64,000 nt of DNA from Alphaproteobacteria bacterium (GTDB lineage Bacteria; Pseudomonadota; Alphaproteobacteria; Bin95): contig CBDBIS010000001.1 in NCBI GenBank assembly GCA_965206075.1, positions 12,928-76,927 on the forward strand, in the 5' to 3' direction. The position numbers and the translations under genes were made by a program. Below the pieces are notes generated by a model, which saw only the letters and a list, made by a program, of their open reading frames with translations, was not told the DNA's origin and ran no database searches. Below are positions 4,463-58,606 of the stretch, one piece after another; positions within the stretch are counted from its first letter, which is position 1; every line of letters starts with the position of its first letter.

Positions 4463-5812
4463 TCAGAAGGCTGCGTCGCGTCCCTTGGCCCTGGCGAGCT
4501 CGCGGGCATTGGGGTTGACGGAGGGGCGGAACGGCATTTCGCAGACTTCCGCCGCCACGGGCCGTCCCGGCTCGTCGGCATAACGGTCCGGCAACCAGAC
4601 GGCATATTCGGTGCCGACACCCGACTTCTCCACCGGCACATAGCCCATGGAAATGTTGCAGCCGAGTTCGGGCGAGTACCAGGGCGAAGTGAGATAGCCC
4701 ACCGGCTCGCCGCCGCCCGGCTCCGACACCAGCCAGAAATCCGGCGCATAGTCGTCGATCGGCCTGCCGCCCATGCGCAGGCCGACCAGCTGCTGGCGCC
4801 AGGGCGGGTTTCCGGCCCCCAATTCCGCGCGCATCCGCTCCAGCGCCGCCTTGCCGATATAGTCGGCGGTCTTTTTGCGCGGCACCTGGTAGGCGAGGTT
4901 GCACTGGAAGGGATTGGTCTCGTGGTCCAGATCCTGGCCCCAGGAGAGGATGCCGGCCGCGATCCGGCGCTGGTGGCCCGGCGCAATCACCATAAGATTA
5001 TGCGCCTTGCCGGCTTCCAGCACTGCCTCCCACATGGCGTTGGCGTGGAGCGTGGCGTCGCGCAGGTAGATTTCGTAGCCCTTCTCGCCGGAGAAGCCGG
5101 TCTGAGAGATGACGACGGCGCAGCCGCCGACCTCCGCCTCCATGATTCCGTAGAACGGAATGTCGCGGACCGCCGGCCCCACCAGGTCGGCCATCAGCGC
5201 TTCCGACTTCGGTCCCTGGATCTGCACGGGGCAAACGTCGATCTCGTCGATCTCGACATTCATCCGCGCGCCGACATTCACGCCCTGCAGCCAGAACAGG
5301 ATGTCGCTGTCGGAAAGCGAGAACCAGAACTCGTCCTCCGCGAGCCTCAGCAGCACGGGATCGTTGAGGATGCCGCCCTTCTCGTTGCAGAGGATGACGT
5401 ATTTCCCGTGCATCGGCTGGATGCGGGCCGCATCGCGGGTGATGACGTAATTCACGAACCGCTCGGCATCCGGGCCCTTCACGCGGATCTGCCGCTCGAC
5501 CGCCACGTTCCACATGGTGACGTGTTTCGTGAGCGCCTCATATTCCACCGAGGCGCCGCCGTCCTCCGGGCGCACATAGCCGCGCGGGTGATAGACGCGG
5601 TTATAGACCGTCGCCCGCCAGCAGCCGGCCTCATGACTGAGATGCCAGTAGGGCGACTTGCGCACCCGCGTCGAGATCAGCAGTTCGGTCTTCGTCGGGC
5701 CGCTCTGGCGCAGGTTGTAGGGCACGACGCGGTCGGACTGGTCCACGCTCGTCGCCTGTTCCCTGCGATAGTGTGAAACGAGGCTGGGGGAATCGTCGAG
5801 GGGCATGGGCAT
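4463..5812 (-). CDS. Aminomethyltransferase (GcvT/DmdA-like, folate-binding) family protein
   Basis: GcvT-family signature over ~450 aa. Start refined to MPMPLDD, which has GGAGG 5 nt upstream; the upstream ORF extension looks non-coding. Confidence 0.78.
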   Translation of the reverse strand: MPMPLDDSPSLVSHYRREQATSVDQSDRVVPYNLRQSGPTKTELLISTRVRKSPYWHLSHEAGCWRATVYNRVYHPRGYVRPEDGGASVEYEALTKHVTMWNVAVERQIRVKGPDAERFVNYVITRDAARIQPMHGKYVILCNEKGGILNDPVLLRLAEDEFWFSLSDSDILFWLQGVNVGARMNVEIDEIDVCPVQIQGPKSEALMADLVGPAVRDIPFYGIMEAEVGGCAVVISQTGFSGEKGYEIYLRDATLHANAMWEAVLEAGKAHNLMVIAPGHQRRIAAGILSWGQDLDHETNPFQCNLAYQVPRKKTADYIGKAALERMRAELGAGNPPWRQQLVGLRMGGRPIDDYAPDFWLVSEPGGGEPVGYLTSPWYSPELGCNISMGYVPVEKSGVGTEYAVWLPDRYADEPGRPVAAEVCEMPFRPSVNPNARELARAKGRDAAF

Positions 5813-5992
5813 CGTGCCTCCACTGGGGTCAGGAGGCCAGATTGGGAGGGCAATTGCGGATGGATGCGCCCGTTCGCGACGATTTTCGCGGCATGGACGA
5901 CAGAATTTCGCTTGCGGGGCGCCTCCAGGCGATTGACAAGGCCGCGACACAAGGGCATTTGGGCTGTAGCGACATCTTGCCGGAGTCGGCCG

Positions 5993-7018
5993 ATGGCTGG
6001 CGAGCAGGTCTTCCGCGGGAGCGACGGCGCACCTGTCGAGGTGACGCTACTTCCTATTCCGAACTTCTCCTTCTCGAGTTTTGCAGCGCTGGTGGAACCC
6101 CTGCGCCTTGCGAACTATGTCGCGGAGCGCCCGCACTACAGTTGGCGCGTCGCGACGCCCGAGGGGATGCCGGTCCGGTCCAGTTGCGGCGTTGCGGTGG
6201 CGGCGGACGAGCCGGCCGAGCGGATCCGGCGCCCGGAGAATGTCGTCGTCTGCGGCGGCGTGGACGGCTGGGCGTTCGAGGACCCCGCTACCTTCGCGCT
6301 GTTGCGCCGCTGGGCGCGGGACGGCGCGCATGTCGGCGCGGCATGCACCGGCGCTTACGTGCTTGCGCGGGCAGGCCTCCTGCGCGACCGGCGCTGCACC
6401 ATCCATTGGGAGAGTCTCGACGGGTTCGCAGAGCGTTTCCCGGATATCGACCTGCGCGCGGCGCTGTTCGAGATCGACCGGGACCGGTTCACCTGCACGG
6501 GCGGCGCCGCGGCCTGCGACATGATCCTGCAGGACATCGGGTGGCGGTTCGGGGAGCAACTGGCGGCGGCGGTCGCCGGCCAGCTTCTCCACGACCGCAT
6601 CCGCAGCGGCCGGGACGAGCGCTACCTGCCCCACCAGGCCTGGCTCCGCACCAGCCATCCGGTGCTGGTGAAGGCGCTGACCGCGATGGCCGAACATCGC
6701 GAGGAGCGCCTTTCCCTGGTCGAGATCGCCCGCGAGGCCAATGTCTCGCCGCGCCAGCTTGAGCGGCTGTTCCGGCGCTATCTCGATTCGACCCCGGCGC
6801 GCTGGTATTTGCGGATGCGCCTCACGCGGGCGCGCCAACTGCTGATCGAGACGCAGATGCCGGTGACCTGGATCGCCGTTGCCTGCGGCTTCGGTTCGAC
6901 CTCGCACTTCTCGAAGAATTACAGGCAGTTCTTCGGCGTCTGCCCGCGAGAGGAGCGGCGCCAGCGCCGCGCGGCCCGCGAATCGGCCGTCCCGCCGCCG
7001 GTAAGCCGCGCCGCATAG
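5993..7018 (+). CDS. GlxA-family transcriptional regulator (DJ-1/PfpI domain + AraC HTH)
   Basis: N-terminal class-I glutamine-amidotransferase-like/DJ-1 fold (VVCGG...CTGA). C-terminal AraC HTH (IAVACGFGSTSHFSKNYRQFFG). Divergent from the nbaC-DapA-like-GcvT-like operon. Confidence 0.8.
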   Translation: MAGEQVFRGSDGAPVEVTLLPIPNFSFSSFAALVEPLRLANYVAERPHYSWRVATPEGMPVRSSCGVAVAADEPAERIRRPENVVVCGGVDGWAFEDPATFALLRRWARDGAHVGAACTGAYVLARAGLLRDRRCTIHWESLDGFAERFPDIDLRAALFEIDRDRFTCTGGAAACDMILQDIGWRFGEQLAAAVAGQLLHDRIRSGRDERYLPHQAWLRTSHPVLVKALTAMAEHREERLSLVEIAREANVSPRQLERLFRRYLDSTPARWYLRMRLTRARQLLIETQMPVTWIAVACGFGSTSHFSKNYRQFFGVCPREERRQRRAARESAVPPPVSRAA

Positions 7019-7065
7019 AGCGCGGCTCGACCCGTCCGCCCCTTCCGGGAAGGGGCGCCGGGCGA

Positions 7066-7092
7066 TGTCATGAGATGTCATGTTTTGTCATG
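7066..7092 (+). repeat. Iteron array A: 3x TGTCATG direct repeats, 10-bp period
   Basis: gaTGTCATGagaTGTCATGtttTGTCATGttcc read directly from the sequence. Confidence 0.9.
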
Positions 7093-7169
7093 TTCCCCAT
7101 GTGTAGGTCTTATGTTCTAGAGCGCGATCCGTTCGAGTTGAAACGGACTTACCGGTAAAGCCTCAATCG

Positions 7170-7450
7170 TCACCCCGGACGGTGCGCCAGCGGCGATCCG
7201 GGGTCCATCTTCCGGCATTTCCACCGGACTGAAACGGCAGTGGATGGGCCCCGGATCGGGGTCCGGGGCGACGAATTGGGTCAAGGACGGCAGCGTTTAG
7301 GGCGGAGCCCGATCTGTATGGATCGCAATTCAGTCCAAACCCGGAATTGTCGCCCCGGCCTCCGAGCCGGGGCCCAGTACCGCCGGCGCAACACGGCGGA
7401 GACCCGATTGCCTGGACCCCGGATCTCCGCTTCGCTCCGTCCAGGCATAA
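7170..7450. repeat. Cluster of REP/RIME-like GC-rich hairpin units (GTCACCCCGG..CCGGGGTCC / GGGCCCCGG..CCGGGGCGAC types)
   Basis: Four palindromic units at ~7170-7212, 7247-7280, 7350-7388 and 7410-7445. Near-identical units recur at >10 other sites in the window. Confidence 0.85.
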
Positions 7451-7548
7451 CGCCCGACCTGCCGTGCTTCCCTCCGTGTCGCGGGAGAGAAGCTTCGCGG
7501 CGGAAATCCGGGCCTACGGACCCGAAACCCCCGCGATGCGTCATCGGA

Positions 7549-7574
7549 TGTCATGTTCTGTCATGTTTTCCATG
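7549..7574 (+). repeat. Iteron array B: TGTCATG x2 + degenerate TCCATG, 10-bp period
   Basis: gaTGTCATGttcTGTCATGttttCCATG. Followed by hairpin GGGCATattcgaATGCCC. Confidence 0.85.
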
Positions 7575-7735
7575 CGCACGGGGCATATTCGAATGCCCGT
7601 TCCGGCATGACGCCGTCCTTTCCCGCGGGGTCTTGGGGTATTCCTCCCTGTTCCGGTGCCTGTCTGTCTTCGGCATAGGTCCCTCCTCTCGACCCGGTTT
7701 CACTCCCACCGGGCGGTTGGCGGCGGGACCCTTTT

Positions 7736-7850
7736 TGCGCGCGTATCCTGCGTGCGCGCCCGCGCCCGGCCGCCCGCGTCTTGCGCCGACGCGGTTCGTG
7801 CGCCTGATTGCGCGCGCGAGACGCCGGACGCACCTGTCCCGTCGCCTCCC
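7736..7850 (-). repeat. ~115-bp conserved GC-rich segment (copy 1). It is the paralog of the leader upstream of the TerS-like gene at 32926-33040
   Basis: Shared blocks ttttgcgcgcgt.tc..gcgtgcgcg ... gcggttcgtgcgcctgattgcgcgcg.gag.c.gga.g.gcac.t.gcctgtc between the two loci. Confidence 0.8.
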
Positions 7851-7924
7851 GCCGGGGCTTTTTTGCGGGCCCCAGTCCTTGCTTCCCTCTGCAGAAAAGC
7901 CGAAAGGCGGCCCCGGAAGCCGCC

Positions 7925-7962
7925 TCTCTCCACTCTCATCATACTACACTTTTCTCCAGGTC
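7925..7962 (-). promoter_or_regulatory. Putative sigma70-type promoter (minus strand) in an AT-rich islet, reading toward the conserved segment and array B
   Basis: Minus-strand reading gCTTGACctggagaaaagtgtagTATGATgag (TTGAC - 16 bp - TATGAT). Adjacent palindrome GAAAAaTTTTC. Confidence 0.4.
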
Positions 7963-8027
7963 AAGCCCTCTGGCGGGAAAAACATGAAAATTTTTCTAAT
8001 TTCCTGCCACAAGCCGAACGGCGCGCG

Positions 8028-8230
8028 GGCGGGAGCCATGGACGAACCCCGGTTCGGGGGCCGGGGTGACAATTGAGAGGCCGCCCCTCTTTCTCCCCTC
8101 GCTTGCGGGAGGGGCCGGGGGACGGCCCACTCTCTCAACCCGACGGGTCTTTGCCGGGCTTCGCCCACCGCTTCCGCTGGCGCGCAAGCGGTCCCCTCAC
8201 CCAACCTCTCCCCGCAAGCGGGGAGAGGGG
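8028..8230. repeat. RIME-like hairpin plus 'ccctcaccc/ctccccgcaagcggggagagggg' repeat family
   Basis: The motif family recurs at 33170-33470 and 43380-43520 (gcttccgc..gcggaagcgg, ctctcccc..ggggagag palindromes). Confidence 0.75.
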
Positions 8231-8328
8231 GAAACGCCGATGCGCCCGATGATCCCCGCAAGCGCCCCCTTGTCGCCCCGAACCCCGGATCGCAGTCCGG
8301 GGCGGAGATACGAGGACGCGGTCTTCCT

Positions 8329-8596
8329 GTGATACCAGCGGCTCCGGTTTGTGACTCATGGAGATCGCCGCCCGGTTTTCCCTCTGCGTCACCCCGGCCG
8401 GAGCGAAGCGGAGAGCCGGGGTCCATCCATGGCTCTCGACGATGCCGTAGCCGGTGGGGAGCAGGCTCGACCGCTGAAGTTGCCGCGAGAACCGAGGCTG
8501 GGCCCCGGCTCGGGGGCCGGGGTGACGGCGGGCGCCATCACAATAGGTTCCGATCGACGACCGCTGGTATGAGCCCCAAGTTGAGGCCGCTGGTAT
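8329..8596. repeat. MITE-like composite element bounded by GTGATACCAGCGG ... CCGCTGGTATGA inverted repeats with internal RIME hairpins
   Basis: Near-identical copy at 43565-43881 (identical spurious peptides in the ORF track at 8329 and 43565). Inverted copy at 54693-54990. Confidence 0.85.
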
Positions 8597-8759
8597 AAGC
8601 AGGAAAAATTTCGAAGACATACAGCCGATCCGACCGTTCGGCGGGAGGCTGTAGCTTCTTCGCCCGGCGCAGCCGTCCCGCTCCGGCCAAGCATCGACAA
8701 TGAAAAAATGCAACTGTAGGCTCCATCATCCGAATCCGCCTGTGGAGGATTGCGCGCCA

Positions 8760-9386
8760 ATGCCGTCCCGCATCGCTCTCGCCGCCCTGCCGCTGCTGCT
8801 TGCCGCCGCGCCCGCCTTCGCCCACCACCCGTTGGGCGGTATGGTGCCCAAGACCTTCATGCACGGCCTGCTTTCCGGCATCGGCCATCCGGTGATCGGG
8901 CTCGACCATTTCGCCTTCGTCGTTGCGCTCGGCCTGGCGGCGGCCTTCATGCGCAATGTCTGGCTGCCGCCGCTCGCGGCCATTATCGCCATGGCGGCGG
9001 GCTGCCTGCTCACCGTCGGCTCGGTGGCCCTGCCGGCGGTCGAGCCGGTCATCGCGGTTTCGGTGGTGCTGCTCGGCGGCATGGTGCTGTTCGGGCGCAG
9101 CCTCCCGGTTCCGGGCGCAGCCCTGCTGTTCGCCTTTGCCGGTCTTTTTCACGGCGCGGCATACGGCGAGGCCGTCATCGGCGCCGAGCCGACGCCGATT
9201 CTTGCCTATCTGATCGGCCTTGCGGCCGTGCAGATGGCGATTGCGCTCGCCGCCGCCTATCTGGTGCGGGGCGTCTGGAAGGCGGGCTCGGCCGCGGCGC
9301 TGCAACCGCGGCTGGCGGGCGCGATCTGCGCCGGCATCGGGCTTACCTTTACCGTCGAGTTGCTGGAAGGCGCGCTCCTCGGCTGA
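8760..9386 (+). CDS. HupE/UreJ family metal (Ni/Co/Cu) transporter
   Basis: Signal peptide ending AFAHHPLGG, the hallmark HupE N-terminus. Multi-TM hydrophobic body. Start refined to the internal Met (MPSRIALAALPLLL). Confidence 0.82.
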   Translation: MPSRIALAALPLLLAAAPAFAHHPLGGMVPKTFMHGLLSGIGHPVIGLDHFAFVVALGLAAAFMRNVWLPPLAAIIAMAAGCLLTVGSVALPAVEPVIAVSVVLLGGMVLFGRSLPVPGAALLFAFAGLFHGAAYGEAVIGAEPTPILAYLIGLAAVQMAIALAAAYLVRGVWKAGSAAALQPRLAGAICAGIGLTFTVELLEGALLG

Positions 9387-9416
9387 GCGCGCTCCGGACC
9401 GGCGCGTTACCGACGG

Positions 9417-9863
9417 CTATTGCTTCGGCATCGTTTCTGCGAGCGGCGCGACGCGGACCTCCACGGTCACGGCGCCGGCCTTCTCGAAGAGGAGCGTGAG
9501 CGGAAAGCTGCCGCCCGGTTTCAGTCGGCCCTTCAGGCCGAACAGCATCAAATGGTCGCCGCCGGGCTCCAGCGCGGCTTCGCCGCCGGCCGGCACATTG
9601 AGGGCTTCCACCCGGCGCATCATCACCACGCCGCCTTCGTGGATGTGGGTGTGAAGCTCGACGCGCTCCGCTGCCGGGCTTTCCGCACCGACCAGCCGGT
9701 CTTCGCCGCCGGCATTGCGGATCGTGAGCCAAGCGGCGCCCGGCCGGCTCGGCAGCAGGATACGCGCGCGGGCGTCCTCCACCGTCAGCGACCCGTCGGC
9801 CGAGGCCGGATCGATGCCGGCAAGGGAGGCGACAAGCGCCGCCGCAAGGGCGAACCGCAGCAT
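9417..9863 (-). CDS. Copper chaperone PCu(A)C (DUF461)
   Basis: Signal peptide plus H(x)nM motif region (ELHTHIHEGGVVMMRRV). Start ATG overlaps the stop of the upstream VWA gene (TGATG). Confidence 0.8.
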   Translation of the reverse strand: MLRFALAAALVASLAGIDPASADGSLTVEDARARILLPSRPGAAWLTIRNAGGEDRLVGAESPAAERVELHTHIHEGGVVMMRRVEALNVPAGGEAALEPGGDHLMLFGLKGRLKPGGSFPLTLLFEKAGAVTVEVRVAPLAETMPKQ

Positions 9864-11047
9864 CAGGCGGCGGTGAGCACCCTGAGGCCCCGGTCGAGGC
9901 CGTCGATAGAGAGCGGGAACATGCGGTTGGCCATGACCTCCTTGACGATCATCGTCGAGGGCGTGTGGTCCCAGCGGGTCTCGGGGCGCGGGTTCAGCCA
10001 GATCGAATTCGGCCACTGGTCCAGCATGCGCTGCGCCCAGAGCAGGCCCGGTTCCTCGTTCCAGTGCTCCACGGAGCCGCCCTTGTAGGTGATCTCGTAG
10101 GGACTCATGAAAGCGTCGCCGACGAAGATCACCTTGTAGTCCTTGGGATAGGTGTTGATGACATCCCAGGTCGGCGTGCGCTGCTCGTGCCGCCGGCGGT
10201 TGTCCCGCCACATATATTCGTAAGTGAAGTTGTGGAAATAGTAGTATTCGAGATGCTTGAACTCGGTACGCGCGGCCGAGAACAGCTCTTCGCAGACCCG
10301 GATATGGTCGTCCATCGAGCCGCCGACATCGAAGAACATCAGCACCTTGACGCGGTTGCGGCGCTCCGGGCGCATGACGATGTCGAGCAGCCCGCCATTA
10401 TGCGCGGTGCTGCGGATCGTTTCGTCGAGGTCGAGCTCGTCGTCCTCGCCCACCCGCGCGAACTCCCGCAGCCGCCTGAGCGCAAGCTGGATGTTGCGGA
10501 TGCCGATCTGGACGTCGTCGTCGTAGTTCTTGTATTCGCGCTTGTCCCATACCTTGAGCGCGCGGCCCTGCCGGCGGCGGCGCTGGCCGATGGCGACGCC
10601 TTCGGGGTTGTAGCCGCCCGTGCCGTAAGGCGAGGTCCCGGCGGTGCCGATCCAGCGGTTCCCGCCCTGATGACGCTCCTTCTGTTCCTCCAGCCGCTTG
10701 CGAAGCTCCTCCATGAGCTTCTCCCAGCCGCCCATGGCCTCGATGGCCGCCTTGTCCTCCTCGCTGAAATACTTCTCCGCCTGGAGCAACAGCCATTCTT
10801 CGGGAATGTCGTCACCGAATAGCGTCGCCGTCAGTTCTTCCACGCCCTTGAAGAACGTGCCGAACACGCGATCGTAGCGGTCGAAATATTTCTCGTCCTT
10901 CACCAGCGCAGAACGGGAGAGATAGTAGAAATCGTCGATATTGTACATCACGAGGCGCTTGTCCATCGCCTCGATCAGCATGAGGAACTCGCGGATCGTC
11001 GCCGGGATCTTCGCCTTCTTTACGTCGAAGAAGAAGTTGATGAGCAT
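9863..11047 (-). CDS. VWA domain protein, CoxE-like (partner of the MoxR ATPase)
   Basis: C-terminal VWA with MIDAS DxSGS (FFDVGGSMDDH). Start ATG overlaps the MoxR stop (ATGA). Confidence 0.85.
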   Translation of the reverse strand: MLINFFFDVKKAKIPATIREFLMLIEAMDKRLVMYNIDDFYYLSRSALVKDEKYFDRYDRVFGTFFKGVEELTATLFGDDIPEEWLLLQAEKYFSEEDKAAIEAMGGWEKLMEELRKRLEEQKERHQGGNRWIGTAGTSPYGTGGYNPEGVAIGQRRRRQGRALKVWDKREYKNYDDDVQIGIRNIQLALRRLREFARVGEDDELDLDETIRSTAHNGGLLDIVMRPERRNRVKVLMFFDVGGSMDDHIRVCEELFSAARTEFKHLEYYYFHNFTYEYMWRDNRRRHEQRTPTWDVINTYPKDYKVIFVGDAFMSPYEITYKGGSVEHWNEEPGLLWAQRMLDQWPNSIWLNPRPETRWDHTPSTMIVKEVMANRMFPLSIDGLDRGLRVLTAA

Positions 11048-11901
11048 CAGCGGCCCTCGCGTCTCGCCATGAAGATCAGGCGCTCGAACAGATGCACGTC
11101 CTGCTCGTTCTTCAACAGCGCGCCATAGAGCGGCGGGATGGACTTGTTGCCGTCCTTGCCGCGCAGGACCTCGGGCGGGATATCCTCCGCCATCAGCAGC
11201 TTCAGCCAGTCCAGGAGCTCGGAGGTGGAAGGCTTCTTCTTCAGGCCCGGAACCTCGCGCATCTGGAAGAAGGCTTCCATCGATTCCTTCACCAGATCCT
11301 TCTTGATGCCCGGATAGTGGACATCGACGATCTCCTGCATCGTCTCGGGGTCCGGGAAGCGGATATAGTGGAAGAAGCAGCGGCGCAGGAAAGCGTCCGG
11401 AAGCTCCTTTTCGTTGTTCGAGGTGATGATGACGATCGGGCGTACCTTCGCCTTGATCGTCTCCCCGGTTTCGTAAACGAAGAACTCCATGCGGTCGAGT
11501 TCCTGCAACAGATCGTTCGGGAACTCGATATCCGCCTTGTCGATCTCGTCGATCAGCAGGACGATCTTCTCGTCCGAAGTGAAGGCGTCCCAGAGCTTGC
11601 CGCGGTCGATATAGTTGGCGATGTCCTTCACCCGCTCATCGCCTAGCTGGCTGTCCCGCAGGCGCGACACCGCGTCATACTCGTACAGGCCGTGCTGGGC
11701 CTTGGTGGTGGACTTGATGTGCCAGGTGATGAGCCGCATGCCGAGCGCCGAGGCGACTTCCTCCGCGAGCATGGTCTTGCCGGTGCCGGGCTCTCCCTTG
11801 ACCAGCAGCGGCCGCTCCAGGGTGATGGAGGCGTTGACCGCCAGCATCAGGTCTTCGGTGGCCACATAGCTGTCGGTGCCGGTGAAACGCATCTCGCTCA
11901 T
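11047..11901 (-). CDS. MoxR-family AAA+ ATPase (CoxD-like)
   Basis: Walker A GEPGTGKT and Walker B LLIDEIDK. Start refined to MSEMRFTGTDSY. Confidence 0.88.
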   Translation of the reverse strand: MSEMRFTGTDSYVATEDLMLAVNASITLERPLLVKGEPGTGKTMLAEEVASALGMRLITWHIKSTTKAQHGLYEYDAVSRLRDSQLGDERVKDIANYIDRGKLWDAFTSDEKIVLLIDEIDKADIEFPNDLLQELDRMEFFVYETGETIKAKVRPIVIITSNNEKELPDAFLRRCFFHYIRFPDPETMQEIVDVHYPGIKKDLVKESMEAFFQMREVPGLKKKPSTSELLDWLKLLMAEDIPPEVLRGKDGNKSIPPLYGALLKNEQDVHLFERLIFMARREGR

Positions 11902-12082
11902 GGGGGCGCCTGTTTCCTCGTGTCTTGTCGCTCTCGCGGTCGGGCGGACCTTAAAGACGGTCTCGGTTCCAATCAAGGCGCGGCGCGGTGACGCGGGAGG
12001 GCGTCGCCCGGGGCCGGCCGGCGTTGAACGCTCCGCCCCGGTCGGCTAGAACCGGGCGGACGACAAGGGGAGGGTCCGGGCC

Positions 12083-12274
12083 GTGTGGGACAACGGGGTC
12101 GGCAAATATCTCTACGGGATGACGATGATCCTCTGCGCGGCGGGCTTCCTGTTCGTGGCGAGCCGGATGCACGGCGCGATGGAGTGGATCGCCTGGGCCG
12201 GCTTCCTCGGCTGCACGGCCTTCGTCTACTGGCTGATCGCGCACCACACGCGCGCGCCGCGCGGCAGGCACTGA
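12083..12274 (+). CDS. Small two-TM membrane protein (hypothetical; GTG start)
   Basis: 63-aa hydrophobic ORF with an AAGGGGAGGG purine tract ~10 nt upstream. No homology recognised. Confidence 0.3.
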   Translation: MWDNGVGKYLYGMTMILCAAGFLFVASRMHGAMEWIAWAGFLGCTAFVYWLIAHHTRAPRGRH

Positions 12275-31874: not shown

Positions 31875-31901
31875 TGTCATGGAGTGTCATGAAATGTCAT
31901 G
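31875..31901 (+). repeat. Iteron array C: 3x TGTCATG, 10-bp period, overlapping the 3' end/stop of the TerS-like gene
   Basis: aagTGTCATGgagTGTCATGaaaTGTCATGttc. The gene's stop codon (TGA on the minus strand) lies inside repeat 2. Confidence 0.9.
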
Positions 31902-32876
31902 TTCGAGGGCGGAACCGGCGTCCTCCGGCCCGGTCTTCCTCTTCTTCTTTTTCTTCTTCTTTCCCGTCGCCGGTCCACTCCAGCCACCGTCTTCGCCGCC
32001 CTGCCATTCGTCGCGTTCGATCCGATCCCGCCTTCGCTCCTCGCGTTCGGCCGGCGACCAGGGGTCGTAGATGTCGGCGTAGCCGTTGCGGCGCTGGTAG
32101 AGCCAGTCGTGCTCCGCGCCGTCGGCCCGGTCGTCGTCGATCATGCCGTCAGTCCGGTCGTCGTAGGCGGACCTGTCGTCGCCGGCCCAGGGGCAGTCTT
32201 CATAGGCCTCCTCGGGCGGGTCGTCGGCGGGCGGCAGGTCGTTTGCCGGTGCGGGCGGGGTCTCGAAGCCGACGGGCAGGCATGCGCGCTCCTCGACCGC
32301 CCCGGCGAGCCTCCGGGCGGCCTCCTCATGCGCGGCTTCGTCGAAACCCTCCTGCGCCTCCAGTTCCTCGCGGCTTTCGCGGTGGCGGGCGAGCGCGCGT
32401 TCGGCCCGGTCCCGGCCCCGGCGCACGGCCTCGGCCAAGGGTCCGGGCTCGGTGCCGACCTCAAGCGCCTCGCCCGCCTCGATCTCTCCGAGTTCGTCCT
32501 CGTGCGGCAGCGGCCAGAGCCGGGCGCGGGCTCCGCCGGCGGGCGCGACCAGCCCGGCAATCTCCGCCTGGAAGCGCAGGACCCGGAGCATGGTATAGGC
32601 GGACCCGCTGGCAACGGCCGCATCCCACGCCTGCTCCAGCCGGGCCAGCACGATCTGCGCCTCGTCGCGCTCGGTGCGCTTCCAGGACAGGCGGATGCGC
32701 CGCAGGCGCTCCACCACATAGGGGCGTTCGAGCAAGGCGCATCCGGTCTGGCGGGCGGAGCGCTCGGAATAACCGGCCTGCCTTGCGGCGCCGGCGGCAT
32801 TGCCGGAGACGGCATAGTGGCGGCAGAAGGCTTCCTGACGGGTGGAGAGGGCAATGGCGGGCTGGATGATGGGCAT
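31887..32876 (-). CDS. Orphan phage terminase small-subunit (Terminase_2/P27-family HTH) domain protein with long acidic tail and poly-Lys C-terminus
   Basis: N-terminal LSTRQEAFCRHYAVSGNAAGAARQAGYSERSARQTGCALLERPYVVERL matches the TerS DNA-binding domain. The rest is D/E-rich low complexity ending KKKKKKKRK. AGGAG RBS before MPIIQ. No large terminase or other phage genes nearby. Confidence 0.7.
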   Translation of the reverse strand: MPIIQPAIALSTRQEAFCRHYAVSGNAAGAARQAGYSERSARQTGCALLERPYVVERLRRIRLSWKRTERDEAQIVLARLEQAWDAAVASGSAYTMLRVLRFQAEIAGLVAPAGGARARLWPLPHEDELGEIEAGEALEVGTEPGPLAEAVRRGRDRAERALARHRESREELEAQEGFDEAAHEEAARRLAGAVEERACLPVGFETPPAPANDLPPADDPPEEAYEDCPWAGDDRSAYDDRTDGMIDDDRADGAEHDWLYQRRNGYADIYDPWSPAEREERRRDRIERDEWQGGEDGGWSGPATGKKKKKKKRKTGPEDAGSALEHDIS

Positions 32877-32925
32877 GGCGGCTCCTCGGTTCGGTTCCCG
32901 TTCTTTCCGTCCCGTCATCGGAGCG

Positions 32926-33040
32926 ACCCTGTTTTGCGCGCGTTTCGCGTGCGCGGGCGGCTGGGCGCGCGTCAGCGCCGGCGCGGTTCGTGCGCCTGAT
33001 TGCGCGCGTGAGCCGGAGGGCGCACTTCGCCTGTCTGCCG
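32926..33040 (-). repeat. ~115-bp conserved GC-rich leader (copy 2) upstream of the TerS-like gene
   Basis: Paralogous to 7736-7850 (see feature there). Confidence 0.8.
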
Positions 33041-33097
33041 AATCGGGGTCGTTCCGCGCCGGGCCGGCACGGGCGGGAGGCGGTCCATGGTCACCGC

Positions 33098-33135
33098 CTC
33101 CCTGGAACCTATTCTAGCATATTTTCCTAGAATGC
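33098..33135 (-). promoter_or_regulatory. Putative promoter with overlapping palindromic operator ATTCTAG-N9-CTAGAAT for the TerS-like gene
   Basis: Minus-strand reading gcTTGCATtctaggaaaatatgcTAGAATagg. The dyad ATTCTAGcatattttCCTAGAAT overlaps the -35/-10 elements. AT-rich islet. Confidence 0.4.
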
Positions 33136-33592
33136 AAGCCCCTGTCCCGAATTTATTTTCGAGACCTTCGGGAAAGACCCGTCGCGCCGGGAGGGAGAAG
33201 CCGCGCGCATCTCTCCTCTCCCCGCTCCCGCTGCTGCCGGTGGAAAGCGGGCCGGGGTTCGGGGGACAGGCGGCCTTCCTCTTTTCCCCCTCCCTCGCTT
33301 GCGAGGGAGAGCCTGCCCCGGACCGCGATCCGGGGGCCGGCGTGGGAGCCTCTCTCTCGGCGTGACGGGCGGTTGCCGGGGCTTCGCCCGCCGCTTCCGC
33401 AGGCGGAAGCGGCCCCTCACCTTGCCTTCTCCCTGAGGGAGAGGGTCTTCCGGGAGTGTGTTTCCGTCCTCTCCGTCATGGGGACCGGCGCGCCCACCGC
33501 TTTCGCCAGGGCAGGCGGTGGGATGGCATTCTCTGTGAGTTGCAACCCGGCGCCGTCGGTATGGGTTCTCCGGGAGCGCGGCCGGGAACCGC

Positions 33593-34096
33593 TTAACCCC
33601 GTTCCGCCCGGTAGGCTTCGAGCGCGGCGAGCAGCGCCTGGACGAACGTCATGCGCGGGGCCCAGGGTTGGAACCGGCGTTCGGGGAACTCGGGCAACGG
33701 GATGAAGAGGCTTGAGGCGACCGCCAGCGGGTGGTCGGCGGAATTTGCGAAGGCGAGCACCGGAACCCCGCGCGCCTGCGCCGCCGCCGCGACCCTGACA
33801 GCGGAGACGTCATCATCGGAAAGGCAAATGGCTACAACCAGATCCTCCCTGTCGAGGGCCGAGACATGCCGCTGAGCCGCATCGGCGGGCGACTCGACCC
33901 GGAAGCAGCGGCAACCGAGCTGCGTCAGGCCGTAGAACAGGTAGGCGGCAATCCAGGAAGCAGGCCGATATCCGACAATATGGATGGAGCGGGCCCGGTC
34001 CAGCATCCCGATCGCCTGGCGGAGAGCGACCGCGTCGACATTCCGTTTCAGCTCTTCGATGGCCGCAATGGACATGTCCGCAACGTTATGGAGCAT
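33593..34096 (-). CDS. SIS-domain protein lacking the N-terminal HTH; possible truncated MurR/RpiR paralog or pseudogene
   Basis: ~35-40% identity by eye with the SIS half of the adjacent RpiR regulator. No HTH in any upstream frame. Confidence 0.5.
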   Translation of the reverse strand: MLHNVADMSIAAIEELKRNVDAVALRQAIGMLDRARSIHIVGYRPASWIAAYLFYGLTQLGCRCFRVESPADAAQRHVSALDREDLVVAICLSDDDVSAVRVAAAAQARGVPVLAFANSADHPLAVASSLFIPLPEFPERRFQPWAPRMTFVQALLAALEAYRAERG

Positions 34097-34664
34097 TGCG
34101 CGGCTCCTGTTTCGACCGTTCCAGGCAATGGCCGGGCGGAATGCCAGCCCGGCGTGGGTCGCGCAGATGCACAGTGAGGAGGATGGTCGGTTTCGGACAG
34201 GGAAACGACGGTCTGCAGGGGTAACGGCGCCCCCGGTCAGCCCGGAATCGAAATGAGCCTCCGGCGGATTTGCCGAGCGACAGACAAGACGGGCGCATAC
34301 CCACAGAAAATAGAAATGCCTTGGCCTTGGCGAACGAGATTGGCGATCCGCTTCCAATCCGGCGACCGCGGCCCGGTGAAGCGGATCGACCCAGCGTCGA
34401 GCGAGCCTGGTCCGCCACGGTCCGGCAAAGCCGGTAGGAGGTTGACATAACTGGAGTTTCCGTCCGGTCTGCTGCGTGCTGTCTTGCGAGGCACGGCATC
34501 TCCCCTTCGATATTAGTAGGCATTATAATAGAAAATATATTTCATTGACAATAACTAAAGAGAATATAGACTTCGATCCTCTTGGCTCAGGCCGTAGAAA
34601 ATTGTTTCATCCTGTGCCATCAAGCCGCTGTCAGGCTCCGGGCTATGCTGCGTTGGAGAAGAGT

Positions 34665-35534
34665 ATGGCGAGCACAAAGCTGCCGTGGGACTATCCCCGG
34701 CTGCACAGAGCTTTTTTGGACCGGTTCGAGACGCTCAGCCCCCATCTGAAGCGCATTGCGCGCTACGCCTTGTCGGATCCCAGCCGGTTCGCATTGCAGA
34801 CGGTGGCAGAGATTTCGCAGGGCTGCGGGGTCCAACCCTCCACGGTTGTTCGTTTCGCCAAGACATTCGGTTTTTCGGGCTTCTCCGACATGCAGAATGT
34901 CTTTCGATTGCGCCTGATCGGAGGCTCCGAATCCTATCGGGAACAGGTTCACGAGCATCGGGGCAGGCTCGGAGCCGTTTCCGGCGACGATCCGGCGGCC
35001 ATACTCCACGAGTTCGCAAGCGCGTCCGTCCTCGCAATCGAGCGTCTGAAGGAAACGCTCGACGCGGACATGTTGCGGGAGGCGGCTGCGATGATGAACG
35101 AGGCGGCTTCCATTTACCTTGTCGGGGAACAGCGCGCGTTTCCGCTCACTTCCTGCTTTGCATATGCGTTGATCGAACTCGGATGCCGATGCCATATGCT
35201 GGACCCTGCCGTCGGGACGATGGCTCGCCAGATCGCGGCCGTCGCCACGGACGAGCTTCTGGTCGCGATCGGCTTGGACGAGCTACCGGAGGCGGTTCTG
35301 GACGCCGTTTCGGATGCGCATGAGCGCGGAGTTCCGGTGCTCGCGATCACCGATTCGGAGGTAAACCGGCTTGCGCGCGATAGCAGGCTCTGCTTCGTGC
35401 TGCGCGATGCGGAAGTGCACCGGATAGCCCCGTTGGCTCCACACGTCGTCCTGGCCCAGTCTCTTGTCATTGCGCTTGACGGGCTGAGATACGGGGAGCG
35501 GTCGGGCGTCATGCAGCGAGAGGCGGTCGGATAG
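34665..35534 (+). CDS. MurR/RpiR family transcriptional regulator (HTH_6 + SIS)
   Basis: HTH_6 (LQTVAEISQGCGVQPSTVVRFAKTFGFSGFSD) plus SIS domain. GGAGAAG RBS before MASTKLP. AT-rich promoter islet 34500-34660 upstream. Confidence 0.85.
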   Translation: MASTKLPWDYPRLHRAFLDRFETLSPHLKRIARYALSDPSRFALQTVAEISQGCGVQPSTVVRFAKTFGFSGFSDMQNVFRLRLIGGSESYREQVHEHRGRLGAVSGDDPAAILHEFASASVLAIERLKETLDADMLREAAAMMNEAASIYLVGEQRAFPLTSCFAYALIELGCRCHMLDPAVGTMARQIAAVATDELLVAIGLDELPEAVLDAVSDAHERGVPVLAITDSEVNRLARDSRLCFVLRDAEVHRIAPLAPHVVLAQSLVIALDGLRYGERSGVMQREAVG

Positions 35535-35724
35535 CCCGGTAGCTGCGGAAGCCTTTGCCTGTCCGGCGGGTGCATTTGCCGCAATATCCTTCCTGACAGT
35601 TCGGTCCGGCAGCACGAAGGGTGCCCTCACGCGCGCGTTCGAGTTCGCCTAACGTCTTGTATTGGGAAATCAAAATGCAATTTTCGGAAAATTAGATGCA
35701 AAAAACGCATATCGGGCCAACGGT

Positions 35725-35975
35725 CATCGATCGGAACCGATTGCGGGGCCGTCGCCCCGGACCCCGATCCGGGGCCCATCCCTGAACGGAGAGGCGCGCA
35801 CAGCCGGCCGTTACAGGGCGGATGCCCTCGGCAACCCTTCATTTGCACCGCCCAAGCAGGTCGAGATGGCCGGAGATGGGCCCCGGATCGGGGTCCGGGG
35901 CGACGATATGGAGACGCAATCTGCGTATAAGTTCGAAGTTGAGCCCGCTGGTATCGGGTGCGGTATGGAACCGGA
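35725..35975. repeat. Composite RIME/MITE-like repeat block
   Basis: GGGCCCCGGATCGGGGTCCGGGGCGAC and CCCGCTGGTAT units shared with other copies. Confidence 0.75.
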
Positions 35976-35981
35976 TATCGG

Positions 35982-36941
35982 CTAAGCGCCGGTGCTGTAG
36001 TAAGCCCGGTACCAGGAGGCAAAGCGGGGCAAGCCCTCGTCGATGGCGGTTCGGGGAGCGTAGCCGAAATGCCGGGCTGCTTCGCCGATATCGGCGCAGG
36101 TCTCCAACACGTCGCCCGGCTGCATTGGCTTGAATTCGATATGCGCCTGCGTTCCGAGCGCGGCTTCAAGCACGCCGATGAAGCGCATCAGCGGCTCAGC
36201 GCGGCCGTTGCCGATATTGTAGATCCGATGCCCGTCCCCGGTCCGGTCGAGCGCGCCGAGCGTGCCCGCCACCGCGTCCTCGACGAAGGTGAAGTCGCGG
36301 GCGAGCCGGCCTTCGTTGAAGACCGGGATCGGCTTGCCGGCGAGCATGGCGCGGGCGAACAGGGTCGGCGCCATGTCCGGCCGGCCCCACGGCCCGTAAA
36401 CCGTGAAGTAGCGCAGCCCCGTCGCGCGGAAGCCGTAGAGATGCGCGTAGCTCTCGGTCATCATCTCGTCGGCGCGCTTGGTGGCGGCGTAGAGCGAGCG
36501 CGGCCGGTCCGCCGCCGCATCCACAGCGAGCGGCCCCGAGCCCGCATCCCCATAGACCGAGGAGGAGCTGGCATACACGAAGTGCGACACGCGCCGCCGC
36601 CGCGCCAGCTCCAGCAGGTTCAGATGCCCGGCGATGTTGGCGCGGACATAGGCGCGCGGGTTCTCCAGCGAATAACGCACGCCGGCCTGCGCGGCGAGGT
36701 GGAGGATGCGTTTCACCCCGCCCGCTGGCAGACGGTCCATCGCTTCGTCGTCGGCGATGTCGGCGCGCTGGAAGGCGAAGCCGGGCAGGCCGATCAGGCG
36801 GGCCAGCCGTGCGCGTTTCAACACCGGGTCGTAATAGCCGTCGAGATTGTCGATGCCGATAACGGCTTCGCCGCGAGCGAGCAGGGCGGCGGCGGCGTGC
36901 ATGCCGATGAAGCCGGCGACGCCGGTGACGAGAATGCTCAT
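35982..36941 (-). CDS. NAD-dependent epimerase/dehydratase (UDP-glucuronate 4-epimerase-like)
   Basis: GVAGFIG Rossmann motif and YxxxK (YAATKRA). Confidence 0.87.
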   Translation of the reverse strand: MSILVTGVAGFIGMHAAAALLARGEAVIGIDNLDGYYDPVLKRARLARLIGLPGFAFQRADIADDEAMDRLPAGGVKRILHLAAQAGVRYSLENPRAYVRANIAGHLNLLELARRRRVSHFVYASSSSVYGDAGSGPLAVDAAADRPRSLYAATKRADEMMTESYAHLYGFRATGLRYFTVYGPWGRPDMAPTLFARAMLAGKPIPVFNEGRLARDFTFVEDAVAGTLGALDRTGDGHRIYNIGNGRAEPLMRFIGVLEAALGTQAHIEFKPMQPGDVLETCADIGEAARHFGYAPRTAIDEGLPRFASWYRAYYSTGA

Positions 36942-58602: not shown

Positions 58603-58606
58603 GGTT

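What the first reader, a model, noticed from the sequence alone, without database searches (positions are those of the whole stretch)
7019..8759. 1.7-kb gene-free region holding a degenerate paralog of the TerS cassette plus two TGTCATG arrays
In a genome where genes otherwise abut or overlap, 7019-8759 has no credible CDS. It does contain a second copy of the ~115-bp conserved leader (7736-7850; blocks like gcggttcgtgcgcctgattgcgcgcg are identical to 32981-33008). A strong minus-strand sigma70-like promoter, TTGAC-16-TATGAT, sits at ~7925-7962 in an AT-rich islet, in the same relative position as the 33100 promoter. Two TGTCATG arrays follow at 7549-7574 and 7066-7092, and RIME hairpins are inserted in between. 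The architecture promoter, leader, degraded body, iterons parallels the 31.9-33.1 kb locus. This suggests either a decayed duplicate gene or a non-coding RNA locus sharing the same control elements.
Basis: seen in the sequence. Interest (0 to 1): 0.6.

Follow-up and report, generated by a model that had tools for sequence, protein, structure and literature searches.

The report
Terminase-less mini copy of a repeated cassette
The 1.7-kb "empty" stretch is an insertion whose core is a miniature, terminase-less copy of a gene cassette repeated 5-10 times in these uncultured alphaproteobacteria. The mini copy keeps the promoter, leader and end repeats, and carries a conserved 41-codon reading frame where the gene used to be.

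Summary
Window 7019-8759 has no ordinary gene. It holds a second copy of the promoter, 5' hairpin and leader of the small-terminase-like (TerS-like) gene at 31887-32876. It also holds two of the window's three TGTCATG/CATGACA arrays and hairpin repeats.

The block is an insertion. In a related genome the flanking GlxA-type regulator and hupE/ureJ genes lie 98 nt apart.

The full cassette (promoter, 190-310-nt leader, TerS-like gene, three heptamers at 10-bp spacing overlapping the stop codon) occurs 5-10 times per genome. It is homogenised within genomes and often sits at synteny breakpoints.

Locus A is not a one-off wreck. Five related minis in other (meta)genomes share changes that full copies lack. 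All but one partly sequenced mini keep the 5' stem-loop, all keep a ribosome-binding site and the array, and most keep a good promoter. Three, including this one, carry an intact 41-codon reading frame.

The function is unknown. My best inference is a transcribed, non-autonomous derivative that keeps the cassette's cis elements. The array would be a phased protein-binding site, most simply for the TerS-like protein. No Rfam, PADLOC or NCBIfam match was found, and neither of the two literature searches turned up this cassette. I class it as a new variant of a known kind, of moderate interest.

The parts
5993..7018 (+). Left flank: GlxA/AraC-family regulator gene (DJ-1_PfpI + HTH_18), 341 aa by comparison with orthologues
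   Evidence: Pfam. Orthologues P0121-P0123 are 83-93% identical. The region is collinear with L096/L097/L100 up to 7018-7034.
7037..7057 (.). Perfect palindrome GCCCCTTCCGGGAAGGGGC just after the regulator's stop codon, next to array 2
   Evidence: Self inverted match at 7037-7057; sequence read. Function not tested.
7066..7131 (-). Orphan array 2: CATGACA x3 at 10-bp spacing (7092-7066), a degenerate CATGGGG (7101-7095) and ~30 nt resembling the tail of the mini body. Probably the remnant of a second, tandem mini.
   Evidence: 7067-7131 is 72% identical to 7540-7604 (family D3).
7160..7450 (.). ~280-nt near-perfect palindromic REP/MITE-like element lying between the two arrays
   Evidence: MFE -176.9 kcal/mol, z = -7.7. 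Arms listed. Related copies at 52.4-52.5 kb and 58.7 kb. It draws only spurious long-hairpin Rfam hits.
7539..7574 (-). Array 1, the 3' end of the mini-cassette. Read on the minus strand: CATGGAA, CATGACA, CATGACA, then a degenerate GATGACG. The TGA stop of the 41-codon ORF lies in the second perfect heptamer.
   Evidence: The surrounding 44 nt are 42/44 identical to the L096 mini.
7551..7676 (-). 41-codon ORF (MPKTDRHRNREEYPKTPRERTASCRNGHSNMPRAHGKHDRT*). It is preceded by GAGAGGAGGGA (7691-7681). Its ATG is in the same register as the TerS-like ATG of locus B.
   Evidence: Intact 41-aa counterparts exist in L284 and L331 (P0241), with no indels in 126 nt at ~64% nt identity and dN/dS 0.5-0.75.
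7677..7932 (-). Leader of the mini-cassette, including the conserved blocks at 7721-7833 (GCAATCAGGCGC, CCGCGTCGGCGC, ACGCGCGC, AGGGTCCC)
   Evidence: nhmmer hit at 7932-7674, E 3e-31. blastn to 32919-33025. Alignments A2, A4 and A6.
7902..7928 (-). 5' stem-loop of the predicted transcript. In this copy it is followed by CUUUUCU, which looks like a terminator.
   Evidence: The stem-loop is present in every full copy with a recognisable -10 (about 30 distinct sequences) and in the two minis tested, winA and L096. The L096 stem has a compensating, different sequence.
7938..8005 (-). Promoter (-10 TATGAT at 7943-7938, -35 TTGACC at 7964-7959) plus an upstream AT-rich palindrome (GAAAAATTTTC). This is the 5' boundary of the repeated unit.
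   Evidence: Sequence read. Family alignment with the consensus ggcTTGac-N15-TAtgAT. Not called by the generic scan.
8010..8691 (.). Cluster of REP-like palindromic repeats between the mini's promoter and hupE. Includes 8328-8528, which is 99% identical to 43564-43764, and 8111-8201, which is 77% identical to 33333-33421 (upstream of locus B's promoter).
8760..9386 (+). Right flank: hupE/ureJ-family gene
   Evidence: Pfam HupE_UreJ on the orthologue in L097. Collinear from 8737 with L097 and from 8712 with L003 and L009.
31875..33137 (-). Reference full cassette (locus B): promoter 33137-33111, leader 33109-32877, TerS-like gene 32876-31887 (329 aa), array 31901-31875 overlapping the stop codon

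Best explanation
SHOWN.

Window ~7035-8691 is a composite insertion between a GlxA-type regulator gene and a hupE/ureJ gene. Its core (8005->7539, minus strand, ~430 nt from the -35 to the array) is a TerS-less 'mini-cassette'.

The parent is a ~1.25-1.4-kb unit: sigma-70-type promoter, 5' stem-loop, conserved 190-310-nt leader, a 300-345-aa protein with an SF6/SPP1-type small-terminase DNA-binding domain, and three CATGACA heptamers at 10-bp spacing overlapping the stop codon. This unit is present 5-10 times per genome in a clade of uncultured alphaproteobacteria, some of them sponge-derived bins.

The mini keeps the promoter, stem-loop, leader, ribosome-binding site, start codon and array. 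A 41-codon ORF replaces the 329-codon gene; it appears to join the first two codons to the basic tail of the gene. The mini belongs to an old, separately evolving lineage found at different loci in at least five other related (meta)genomes.

The rest of the block is a second orphan array carrying a scrap of mini tail, a 280-nt palindromic repeat between the arrays, and a cluster of REP-like repeats.

INFERRED.

(a) The mini is still transcribed from its own promoter, and the short ORF is translated up to the array. There, the 10-bp spacing puts a TGA in all three reading frames.

(b) The three heptamers lie on one face of the helix and form a protein-binding site. The most economical binder is the cassette's own TerS-like helix-turn-helix protein, made in trans by full copies such as locus B.

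(c) The mini is therefore a non-autonomous derivative. It retains the cis-acting ends of the cassette and acts as an extra binding or decoy site, and possibly as the source of a 41-aa tail peptide.

What process the cassette serves (regulation, DNA packaging or transfer, anti-phage interference) is not established.
For: Identity as a paralogue.

Insertion: L097, L098 and L099 have the two flanking genes 98 nt apart and are collinear with 4463-7018 and 8737-12262.

Parent family:
- 114 tblastn-confirmed loci, 80 kept, with 5-10 per genome.
- The unit boundaries are sharp, from 220-375 nt upstream of the ATG to just past the array.
- The array is present, always in sense orientation, in 57 of 80 loci; most sit at the gene's 3' end, and many of the rest are truncated contigs.
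- The ORF ends inside the array in either of two frames.
- Paralogues within a genome are 90-98% identical. Positional orthologues are 78-87% identical while their flanks are 85-94% identical.
- Copies sit at synteny breakpoints.

Protein:
- Pfam Terminase_2, E 4e-13, residues 11-84.
- PHROG 51.
- PDB 4ZC3/2CMP/3ZQP by sequence.
- By fold: TM 0.77-0.82, rmsd 0.8 A.

Mini lineage:
- L096 is 71.5% identical over 309 nt, with the array context 42/44 identical.
- L284, L290, L308 and L321 have leader plus array and no TerS.
- Shared derived blocks are GACGGGAGAGGTGCGCCC, AGGGTCCCGCCGC and CTTATGCC..CAGAACATG..GCGCATGG.
- Promoters are retained in 5 of the 6 minis whose promoter region is in hand (winA, L284, L290, L308, L331; L096 has a weak -10). 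All keep a ribosome-binding site.
- The stem of the 5' hairpin in L096 has a compensating sequence.
- Intact 41-aa ORFs occur in the window, L284 and L331 with no indels.
- In-situ reduction of a full copy to a mini is seen in L308, whose downstream flank matches full cassette L057 at 88%. L031 has a mini just downstream of a full copy.

Arrays occur only with cassettes or their remnants across ~700 kb of related loci.
Against: There is no expression, binding or proteomic data.

This copy shows signs of relaxed constraint:
- Its leader is only ~61% identical to full copies.
- Its -10 lacks the TG extension of the family.
- Its 5' hairpin is followed by a U-rich tract that could terminate transcription early.

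The small ORF is only weakly constrained. dN/dS is 0.5-0.75 on 41 codons. It is frameshifted in L096, lacks a start in L321 and is interrupted by a repeat in L290.

Nothing links the array to the TerS-like protein except constant co-occurrence. For the nearest solved relative (SF6), the isolated DNA-binding domain showed little sequence specificity for the direct repeats of its packaging-initiation (pac) site (PMC4737164).

In phage contigs, similar ATGACA arrays look like late-promoter elements rather than terminase sites.
Confidence: 0.6

Rival explanations
1. Plain decay. Locus A is a dead remnant of one or two cassette copies, wrecked by internal deletion and repeat insertion. It has no present function. 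The conserved pieces are kept similar only by occasional gene conversion from full copies.
For: The leader has diverged to ~61% identity. A terminator-like tract follows the 5' hairpin. Array 1 has only two perfect heptamers. The locus is embedded in repeats. Some sister minis have a broken short ORF. dN/dS is not far below 1. In-situ deletions do happen.
Against: The blocks shared by the minis are mini-specific, so conversion from full copies cannot maintain them. Array 1 and its context are 42/44 identical to L096, against 71.5% identity overall. Promoters and ribosome-binding sites are retained across minis. The 41-codon length is kept in three genomes at ~64% nt identity with no indels, while the adjacent leader is full of indels.
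Confidence: 0.22
2. Non-coding regulatory RNA. The mini is an RNA gene whose product is the leader itself, for example a decoy or sponge for whatever factor regulates the long 5' UTR of the full cassettes. The short ORF would be incidental.
For: Leader blocks are more conserved than the protein, across copies with only ~60% aa identity. The 5' stem-loop is kept with compensatory change. The promoter is retained in most minis. The fold energy of 7540-7935 has z = -3.0.
Against: No Rfam family matches, even at E<=5. The RNAalifold consensus has almost no covariation (covariation term -0.25 kcal/mol). The ribosome-binding site, start codon and frame are conserved, which points to translation.
Confidence: 0.15
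3. Packaging sites. The TerS-like protein is a domesticated small terminase and the arrays are its packaging-initiation (pac-like) sites. Full cassettes and TerS-less minis would then mark chromosomal sites from which a gene transfer agent (GTA) or helper-phage large terminase starts packaging host DNA.
For: The DNA-binding domain is of the SF6/SPP1 type. In SPP1 the pac site consists of sets of direct repeats at the terS gene (PMC4737164). The heptamers are phased with the helix. Minis retain exactly the two cassette ends. CATGACA x3 arrays in IMG/VR contigs lie beside terminase genes in L082/L083, L084, L085 and L087.
Against: No large terminase or structural gene lies next to any cassette examined. 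Only the N-terminal half of the Terminase_2 profile matches, and the C-terminal half is acidic and predicted disordered. Phage ATGACA arrays mostly sit 13-15 nt upstream of an extended -10, downstream of sigma/ArpU-like genes, so they look like late promoters; their nearness to terS follows from operon order. Whole genomes could not be searched for a GTA.
Confidence: 0.1
4. Mobile element. The cassette is an autonomous mobile unit and the mini is its non-autonomous (MITE-like) derivative, moved by an enzyme encoded elsewhere that recognises the array end.
For: The unit is multi-copy with sharp common boundaries. There are internal-deletion derivatives that keep both ends. Type-1 minis sit in different genomic contexts in different genomes. 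An empty site exists. Tandem arrangements occur (window; L031 and L044).
Against: No transposase or recombinase is in the unit. The cassette ends show no terminal inverted repeats. No target-site duplication is seen at the window junctions. Many copies are positional orthologues across genomes, so movement is rare. One-flank sharing is explained by recombination between copies.
Confidence: 0.1
5. Pho boxes. On the plus strand the arrays read TGTCAT, the PhoB half-site, so they could be phosphate-regulated operator sites.
For: The heptamer resembles CTGTCAT (sequence; the Pho-box consensus is from my own knowledge).
Against: The spacing is 10 bp in every array, not 11. There are three units. 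They always sit at the 3' end of the cassette, often facing the end of a convergent gene as in both window loci. They are never found apart from cassettes.
Confidence: 0.02

Closest known systems
Phage small terminase with its pac site (SPP1/SF6 G1P; Pfam PF03592 Terminase_2)
   Same: The N-terminal helix-turn-helix DNA-binding domain matches by sequence and by fold. A set of short direct repeats is physically tied to the terS gene (PMC4737164).
   Different: There is no large terminase and no prophage context. The gene is present 5-10 times per genome. It has a long conserved 5' leader and an acidic, disordered C-terminal half. The repeats lie at the 3' end and overlap the stop codon. TerS-less derivatives exist.
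Autonomous IS element with MITE-type non-autonomous derivatives
   Same: A multi-copy unit with sharp ends. Internal-deletion minis keep both ends. Copies serve as substrates for rearrangement.
   Different: No transposase, no terminal inverted repeats and no target duplication were seen. Many copies are positionally conserved, and the family evolves in concert.
Late (packaging-operon) promoters of Firmicutes-type phages, with phased ATGACA repeats next to ArpU/RinA-like regulators
   Same: The same hexamer core and 10-bp spacing in three or more units, found near terS genes.
   Different: In phages the array lies upstream of terS and 13-15 nt before an extended -10. Here it lies downstream of the gene with no -10-like element after it.
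REP/BIME-type intergenic palindromic repeats
   Same: The elements at 7160-7450 and 8010-8691 are palindromic, multi-copy and intergenic.
   Different: They are passengers in the locus, not part of the cassette. Identity with Rhizobium 'RIME' elements was not tested.
Satellite (PICI/SaPI) small-terminase or Rpp-type packaging hijackers
   Same: A terminase-small-subunit-like protein encoded outside a phage (a conceptual resemblance only, from my own knowledge).
   Different: No island context, integrase or capsid-morphogenesis genes. No PADLOC or NCBIfam match.

Membership tests
Multi-copy TerS-like cassette of this alphaproteobacterial clade (undescribed; defined here) | Promoter of the form ggcTTGac-N15-TAtgAT with an upstream AT-rich palindrome | tested here: met
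   7964-7938 plus GAAAAATTTTC upstream. Aligned with 50 copies.
Multi-copy TerS-like cassette of this alphaproteobacterial clade (undescribed; defined here) | 5' stem-loop and conserved leader blocks | tested here: met
   Stem-loop at 7928-7902. nhmmer E 3e-31. The GCCGGCCCGGCGCGGAACGACCCCGATTC block is replaced.
Multi-copy TerS-like cassette of this alphaproteobacterial clade (undescribed; defined here) | Ribosome-binding site and ATG at a fixed distance from the last leader block | tested here: met
   The ATG at 7676 lies 45 nt after the block end, against 43 nt in locus B.
Multi-copy TerS-like cassette of this alphaproteobacterial clade (undescribed; defined here) | 300-345-aa ORF with a Terminase_2 DNA-binding domain | tested here: not met
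   Only a 41-codon ORF is present. No similarity to the TerS body.
Multi-copy TerS-like cassette of this alphaproteobacterial clade (undescribed; defined here) | CATGACA x3 at 10-bp spacing in sense orientation, overlapping the stop codon | tested here: met
   Array 1 has two perfect units and two degenerate ones, with the stop codon inside it. Array 2 has three perfect units.
Phage small terminase (PF03592; applies to the locus B protein, not to locus A) | N-terminal helix-turn-helix DNA-binding domain | tested here: met
Phage small terminase (PF03592; applies to the locus B protein, not to locus A) | Central oligomerisation core that forms a ring | tested here: inconclusive
   Helices 52-106 are predicted (pLDDT 64-82). 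3ZQQ aligns over 131 columns but at rmsd 8.7 A. Only profile positions 2-72 of 141 match.
Phage small terminase (PF03592; applies to the locus B protein, not to locus A) | Encoded next to a large terminase in a virion-assembly module | tested here: not met
   katG lies downstream in the window. L210 has housekeeping and IS neighbours. No flanking protein family recurred next to the cassettes; the flank ORFs were clustered but not annotated.
Phage small terminase (PF03592; applies to the locus B protein, not to locus A) | Binds a pac/cos site and recruits the large terminase | not testable with these tools
   Needs biochemistry.
Any Rfam RNA family | Match to a curated covariance model | tested here: not met
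   The only gathering-level hit in the window is tRNA-Val. At E<=5 there are only spurious hairpin hits.
Pho box (PhoB operator) | Direct CTGTCAT repeats at 11-bp spacing, replacing a -35 element | tested here: not met
   The spacing is 10 bp everywhere and the arrays lie at gene 3' ends.
Replication iterons | 17-22-bp direct repeats next to a rep gene or origin features | tested here: not met
   The units are 7 bp and no rep gene lies nearby.
MITE / non-autonomous transposable element | Terminal inverted repeats and a target-site duplication | tested here: not met
   No inverted match between the cassette ends. No duplication at 7034/8692 when compared with the empty site; the block is composite, so this test is weak.
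Phage late-promoter ATGACA arrays | An extended -10 element 13-15 nt downstream of the last repeat | tested here: not met
   No -10-like element follows any of the three window arrays or the family consensus CACTTCGCAGGGG.
REP/BIME-like repeats (the hairpins) | Palindromic, multi-copy, intergenic | tested here: met
RIME (Rhizobium-specific intergenic mosaic elements) | Sequence identity to the published RIME consensus | not tested
   No reference sequence was available in the tools.

The most novel reading that the evidence does not exclude
The cassette is a domesticated small terminase together with its recognition site, scattered at 5-10 chromosomal positions and kept uniform by gene conversion. 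It would direct a gene transfer agent or helper-phage motor to start packaging host DNA at defined loci. The TerS-less minis, such as window 7539-8005, would be extra recognition sites served in trans. This would amount to a built-in system of site-directed gene transfer in uncultured, partly sponge-associated, symbionts.
Probability: 0.1. Interest if true: 0.85.

Novelty: new variant of a known kind. Interest (0 to 1): 0.55.

Why it matters
If the reading is right, a phage DNA-recognition protein has been taken over by a bacterial lineage as a multi-copy cassette that evolves in concert, with its own fixed promoter, leader and end repeats. That cassette has also produced a conserved family of protein-less mini copies. 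This gives a concrete and testable system. Does an orphan small terminase bind phased heptamers at the end of its own gene, and what does it do there: regulation, DNA transfer or interference with phages? The work also shows that these cassettes mark the points where the symbiont genomes have been rearranged. Finally, it warns annotators that the "empty" 1.7 kb holds a conserved 41-codon gene candidate.

Tried and rejected
- **Rfam.** Searched at gathering score over the whole window and at E<=5 on both loci; nothing relevant.
- **RNAalifold on 20 leaders.** A long-range GACCCC/GGGTC pairing is predicted, but both sides are invariant, so it proves nothing.
- **Generic promoter scan.** It finds no promoter in either locus because of the 15-nt spacer. 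I kept the promoter call on the strength of family conservation instead.
- **Exact-protein look-ups.** The window's GlxA, HupE and TerS-like proteins are not in the collection, and P0004 was not on record.
- **PADLOC and NCBIfam.** No hit for the TerS-like protein.
- **Literature.** Searches for the heptamer with terminase or pac, and for small terminases in sponge symbionts, found nothing on this cassette.
- **Phage evidence for a terminase site.** CATGACA x3 arrays in IMG/VR looked enriched next to terminase genes. A wider scan then showed the common phage form is an array just upstream of an extended -10, after a sigma/ArpU-like gene. I no longer count it as support for terminase binding.
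- **Pho-box and iteron readings.** Rejected on spacing, unit size and context.
- **Small ORF.** I first judged it unconstrained from the window-versus-L096 comparison. I revised this after L284 and L331 showed the same 41-codon length.
- **Crude GC3-based gene caller.** Too inaccurate to test the claim that genes elsewhere abut or overlap. That claim is left untested.
Full report
**Observation.** The window is 64-72% G+C. Between the stop of a GlxA/AraC-type regulator gene (7018) and the start of a hupE/ureJ-type gene (8760) there is no ordinary gene. All ORFs in 7019-8759 have flat G+C over the three codon positions, whereas neighbouring genes show the usual 0.7/0.5/0.86 pattern.

- blastn aligns 7721-7833 with 32919-33025 (80.7%, E 4e-20).
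- A profile of 20 family leaders hits only 33109-32872 and 7932-7674 in the window.
- TGTCATG-N3-TGTCATG occurs five times against 0.00 expected. All eight plus-strand TGTCATG lie in three arrays.
- 7160-7450 folds into one ~280-nt hairpin, z = -7.7.
- The promoter (TTGACC at 7964-7959, TATGAT at 7943-7938, minus strand) is in register with TTGCAT/TAGAAT at 33137-33111.
- The generic scan misses both promoters because the spacer is 15 nt.

**The reference locus.** On the minus strand, 32876-31887 encodes a 329-aa protein.
- Residues 11-84 match Pfam Terminase_2 (E 4e-13; only profile positions 2-72 of 141) and PHROG 51.
- The closest solved structures are the SF6/SPP1 small-terminase DNA-binding domain, by sequence and by fold (TM 0.77-0.82, rmsd 0.8 A).
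- Helices continue to residue 106. The rest is acidic, ends in a lysine run and is predicted disordered.
- The gene stands alone beside katG.
- It has no PADLOC or NCBIfam match.

**A multi-copy cassette.** A scan of one genome per species found 114 related loci, 80 of them kept. All are in uncultured 'Alphaproteobacteria/Rhodospirillaceae' MAGs, several named as sponge bins, with 5-10 copies per genome.
- Within a genome, similarity starts 220-375 nt upstream of the ATG and stops just past the array, which gives a 1.25-1.4-kb unit.
- The array (three heptamers, at most 2 mismatches in total) is present in sense orientation in 57 of 80 loci and never in antisense. Most arrays sit at the gene's 3' end.
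- The ORF always ends inside the array, as ...PDHD[KRI][TSA]* or, in another frame...PTMTxHDI[SP]*. A 10-bp spacing puts a TGA in all three frames.
- The promoter, 5' stem-loop and leader blocks are nearly invariant even between copies with ~60% protein identity.
- Positional orthologues in different genomes are 78-87% identical in the cassette, while their flanks are 85-94% identical. Paralogues within one genome are 90-98% identical. This is concerted evolution.
- Many pairs of loci from different genomes share only one flank, so copies sit at rearrangement breakpoints.
- One copy is surrounded by IS1595 and IS3 elements.

**Anatomy of locus A** (read on the minus strand):
- an AT-rich palindrome and the promoter (8005-7938);
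- the 5' stem-loop (7928-7902), here followed by CUUUUCU;
- the leader (to 7677), with one family block replaced and the others kept;
- GAGAGGAGGGA and an ATG at 7676, within 2 nt of the register of locus B;
- a 41-codon ORF ending at the TGA in array 1 (7551);
- array 1 (7574-7539);
- the 280-nt palindrome;
- array 2 (7101-7066), preceded by ~30 nt that resemble the end of the mini body (72% over 65 nt).

Upstream of the promoter lie 680 nt of REP-like repeats. One segment, 8328-8528, is 99% identical to 43564-43764.

**The block is an insertion.** In L097 (a 3.43-Mb contig whose GlxA orthologue is 89% identical in protein, and whose flanks are ~85% identical in DNA) and in L098/L099, the GlxA and hupE genes are 98 nt apart. 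They are collinear with 4463-7018 and 8737-12262.

In L003 and L009 a full cassette sits directly upstream of the same hupE gene, with its array ~75 nt before the ATG. Its orientation is opposite to that of the window mini. This neighbourhood is therefore a recurrent cassette site, but the window arrangement is not a simple orthologue of those copies.

**A family of minis.** L096 is the closest relative found; its flanks are 88-89% identical. Five kilobases beyond GlxA it has the same kind of mini: 71.5% identical over 309 nt, with 42 of 44 nt identical around the array.

Four had a leader, and none of those had a TerS gene: L284, L290, L308 and L321. The protein search with the short ORF found one further case, L331.

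The window, L096, L284, L290, L321 and L331 share nucleotides that full copies lack. They lie in different contexts: GlxA|hupE, xseA|GST, acyl-CoA-ligase-like|lepA and FMN_dh|cytochrome c.
- 5 of the 6 minis whose promoter region is in hand keep a good promoter (the exception is L096, with a weak -10). All keep a ribosome-binding site.
- The 5' stem in L096 is kept with a different, compensating sequence.
- Three minis (window, L284, L331) have an intact ORF of exactly 41 codons: MP[KR]T.R......[LS]C....[QS].M...HG.HD[KR]T*. There are no indels at ~64% nt identity, and dN/dS is 0.5-0.75.
- L096 is frameshifted, L321 lacks a start and L290 carries a repeat insertion.
- The ORF looks like the first two codons joined to the basic tail of the TerS-like gene (RKT.PE.D ... 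HD.T*). This is inference.
- Minis also arise afresh. The L308 mini sits where L057 has a full copy, with the downstream flank 88% identical. L031 has a partial leader plus array 250 nt after a full copy.

**What the array might be.**
- *Shown:* three or four heptamers at 10-bp spacing, always in sense orientation, always tied to a cassette or its remnant, and conserved whatever the reading frame. In more distant relatives, degenerate arrays are read through as ...MTEPDISLH... inside longer proteins. The constraint is therefore on the DNA or RNA, not on a peptide.
- *Tested and not met:* Pho box (spacing 10, not 11); iterons; intrinsic terminator; phage late-promoter form (no -10 follows).
- *Phage lead:* exact CATGACA x3 arrays occur in 12 IMG/VR contigs, several of them beside terminase genes. 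The broader ATGACA x3 pattern occurs in at least 120 contigs. It typically sits 13-15 nt before an extended -10, downstream of a weakly sigma/ArpU-like gene and upstream of terS/HNH/terL. That looks like late-promoter architecture. It shows that such arrays are protein-binding elements, but it does not tie them to small terminases.
- *Inferred:* the binder here is the cassette's own helix-turn-helix protein.

**Mechanism, and what rests on what.**
- *Secure:* the paralogy, the insertion, the family structure, the concerted evolution and the existence of a conserved mini lineage.
- *Probable:* the mini is or recently was transcribed, and its short ORF translated.
- *Speculative:* what the TerS-like protein and its array do. 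The options are autoregulation, packaging or transfer initiation, and interference with phages.

The window copy shows some relaxation: a diverged leader, a possible early terminator and a partly degenerate array 1. It may be on its way out even if the lineage is functional.

**Comparison and novelty.** The nearest known things are small terminases with repeat-bearing pac sites (PMC4737164), IS/MITE pairs, and phage late-promoter arrays. The cassette fails a defining test for each: no large terminase, no transposase or inverted repeats, and no -10 element. Neither of the two literature searches, nor any curated family, turned up this cassette. I rate it a new variant of a known kind.

**Limits.** The window's own genome is not in the collections. 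Whole genomes could not be scanned for a GTA or terminase. The mini sample is six sequences.

Noticed in passing
window 8328-8528 and 43564-43764: A 201-bp segment is 99% identical between two gene-poor, repeat-rich stretches. This is far closer than the other REP-like matches (75-95%) and suggests a recent copy or conversion event.
   Followed up: no
window 58340-58604; L053 and L069 4159-4421: A ~265-bp element in the window is ~90% identical to an insertion that interrupts the TerS-like gene in two cassette copies of genome OZ253490, whose ORFs stop at 133 aa. It is probably a small mobile (MITE-like) element shared across these genomes.
   Followed up: partly
80 related loci (L001-L080): The cassettes evolve in concert. 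Paralogues within a genome are 90-98% identical. Positional orthologues are only 78-87% identical although their flanks are 85-94% identical. Many inter-genome pairs share only one flank, so cassettes mark synteny breakpoints.
   Followed up: yes
L061-L079 (more distant relatives): Here degenerate arrays are translated inside longer proteins (repeats ...MTEPDISLH... / ...PTEPDISLHRAGL...), followed by extra C-terminal modules that again end in an array. The long G+C-rich leader is replaced by a short AT-rich region with palindromes such as TTGTTCCTATATCGATAACAGAACAA.
   Followed up: partly
IMG/VR contigs L101, L104, L129, L145, L164, L166, L174 and others: Three or more ATGACA units at 10-bp spacing occur in at least 120 viral contigs. 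They commonly lie 13-15 nt upstream of an extended -10 (TGnTATAAT/TATAGT), just after a small gene with weak sigma-region-4/ArpU similarity, and just before HNH/terS/terL. This is an apparently common late-promoter design.
   Followed up: partly
window 8111-8201 and 33333-33421: Both cassette loci have a 77%-identical REP-like segment 150-280 nt upstream of their promoters, in the same relative position.
   Followed up: no
L210 7596-12181: One full cassette is bracketed by two IS1595-family transposase genes upstream and an IS3-family pair immediately downstream, with an HNH plus N6/N4-methyltransferase pair next to them.
   Followed up: no
arrays generally, e.g. window 31875-31901: Each CATGACA holds an overlapping AUG and UGA (AUGA). 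Three units at 10-nt spacing give both a start and a stop in every frame, plus a 7-codon mini-ORF (MTxHDxx*) that spans the array.
   Followed up: no
window 34000-36000: G+C falls to 0.59-0.62 just beyond the promoter side of locus B, against 0.67-0.73 around it. The stretch may be foreign DNA.
   Followed up: no
window 46573-46647: tRNA-Val (CAC) on the minus strand is the only Rfam or ARAGORN hit in the window.
   Followed up: no
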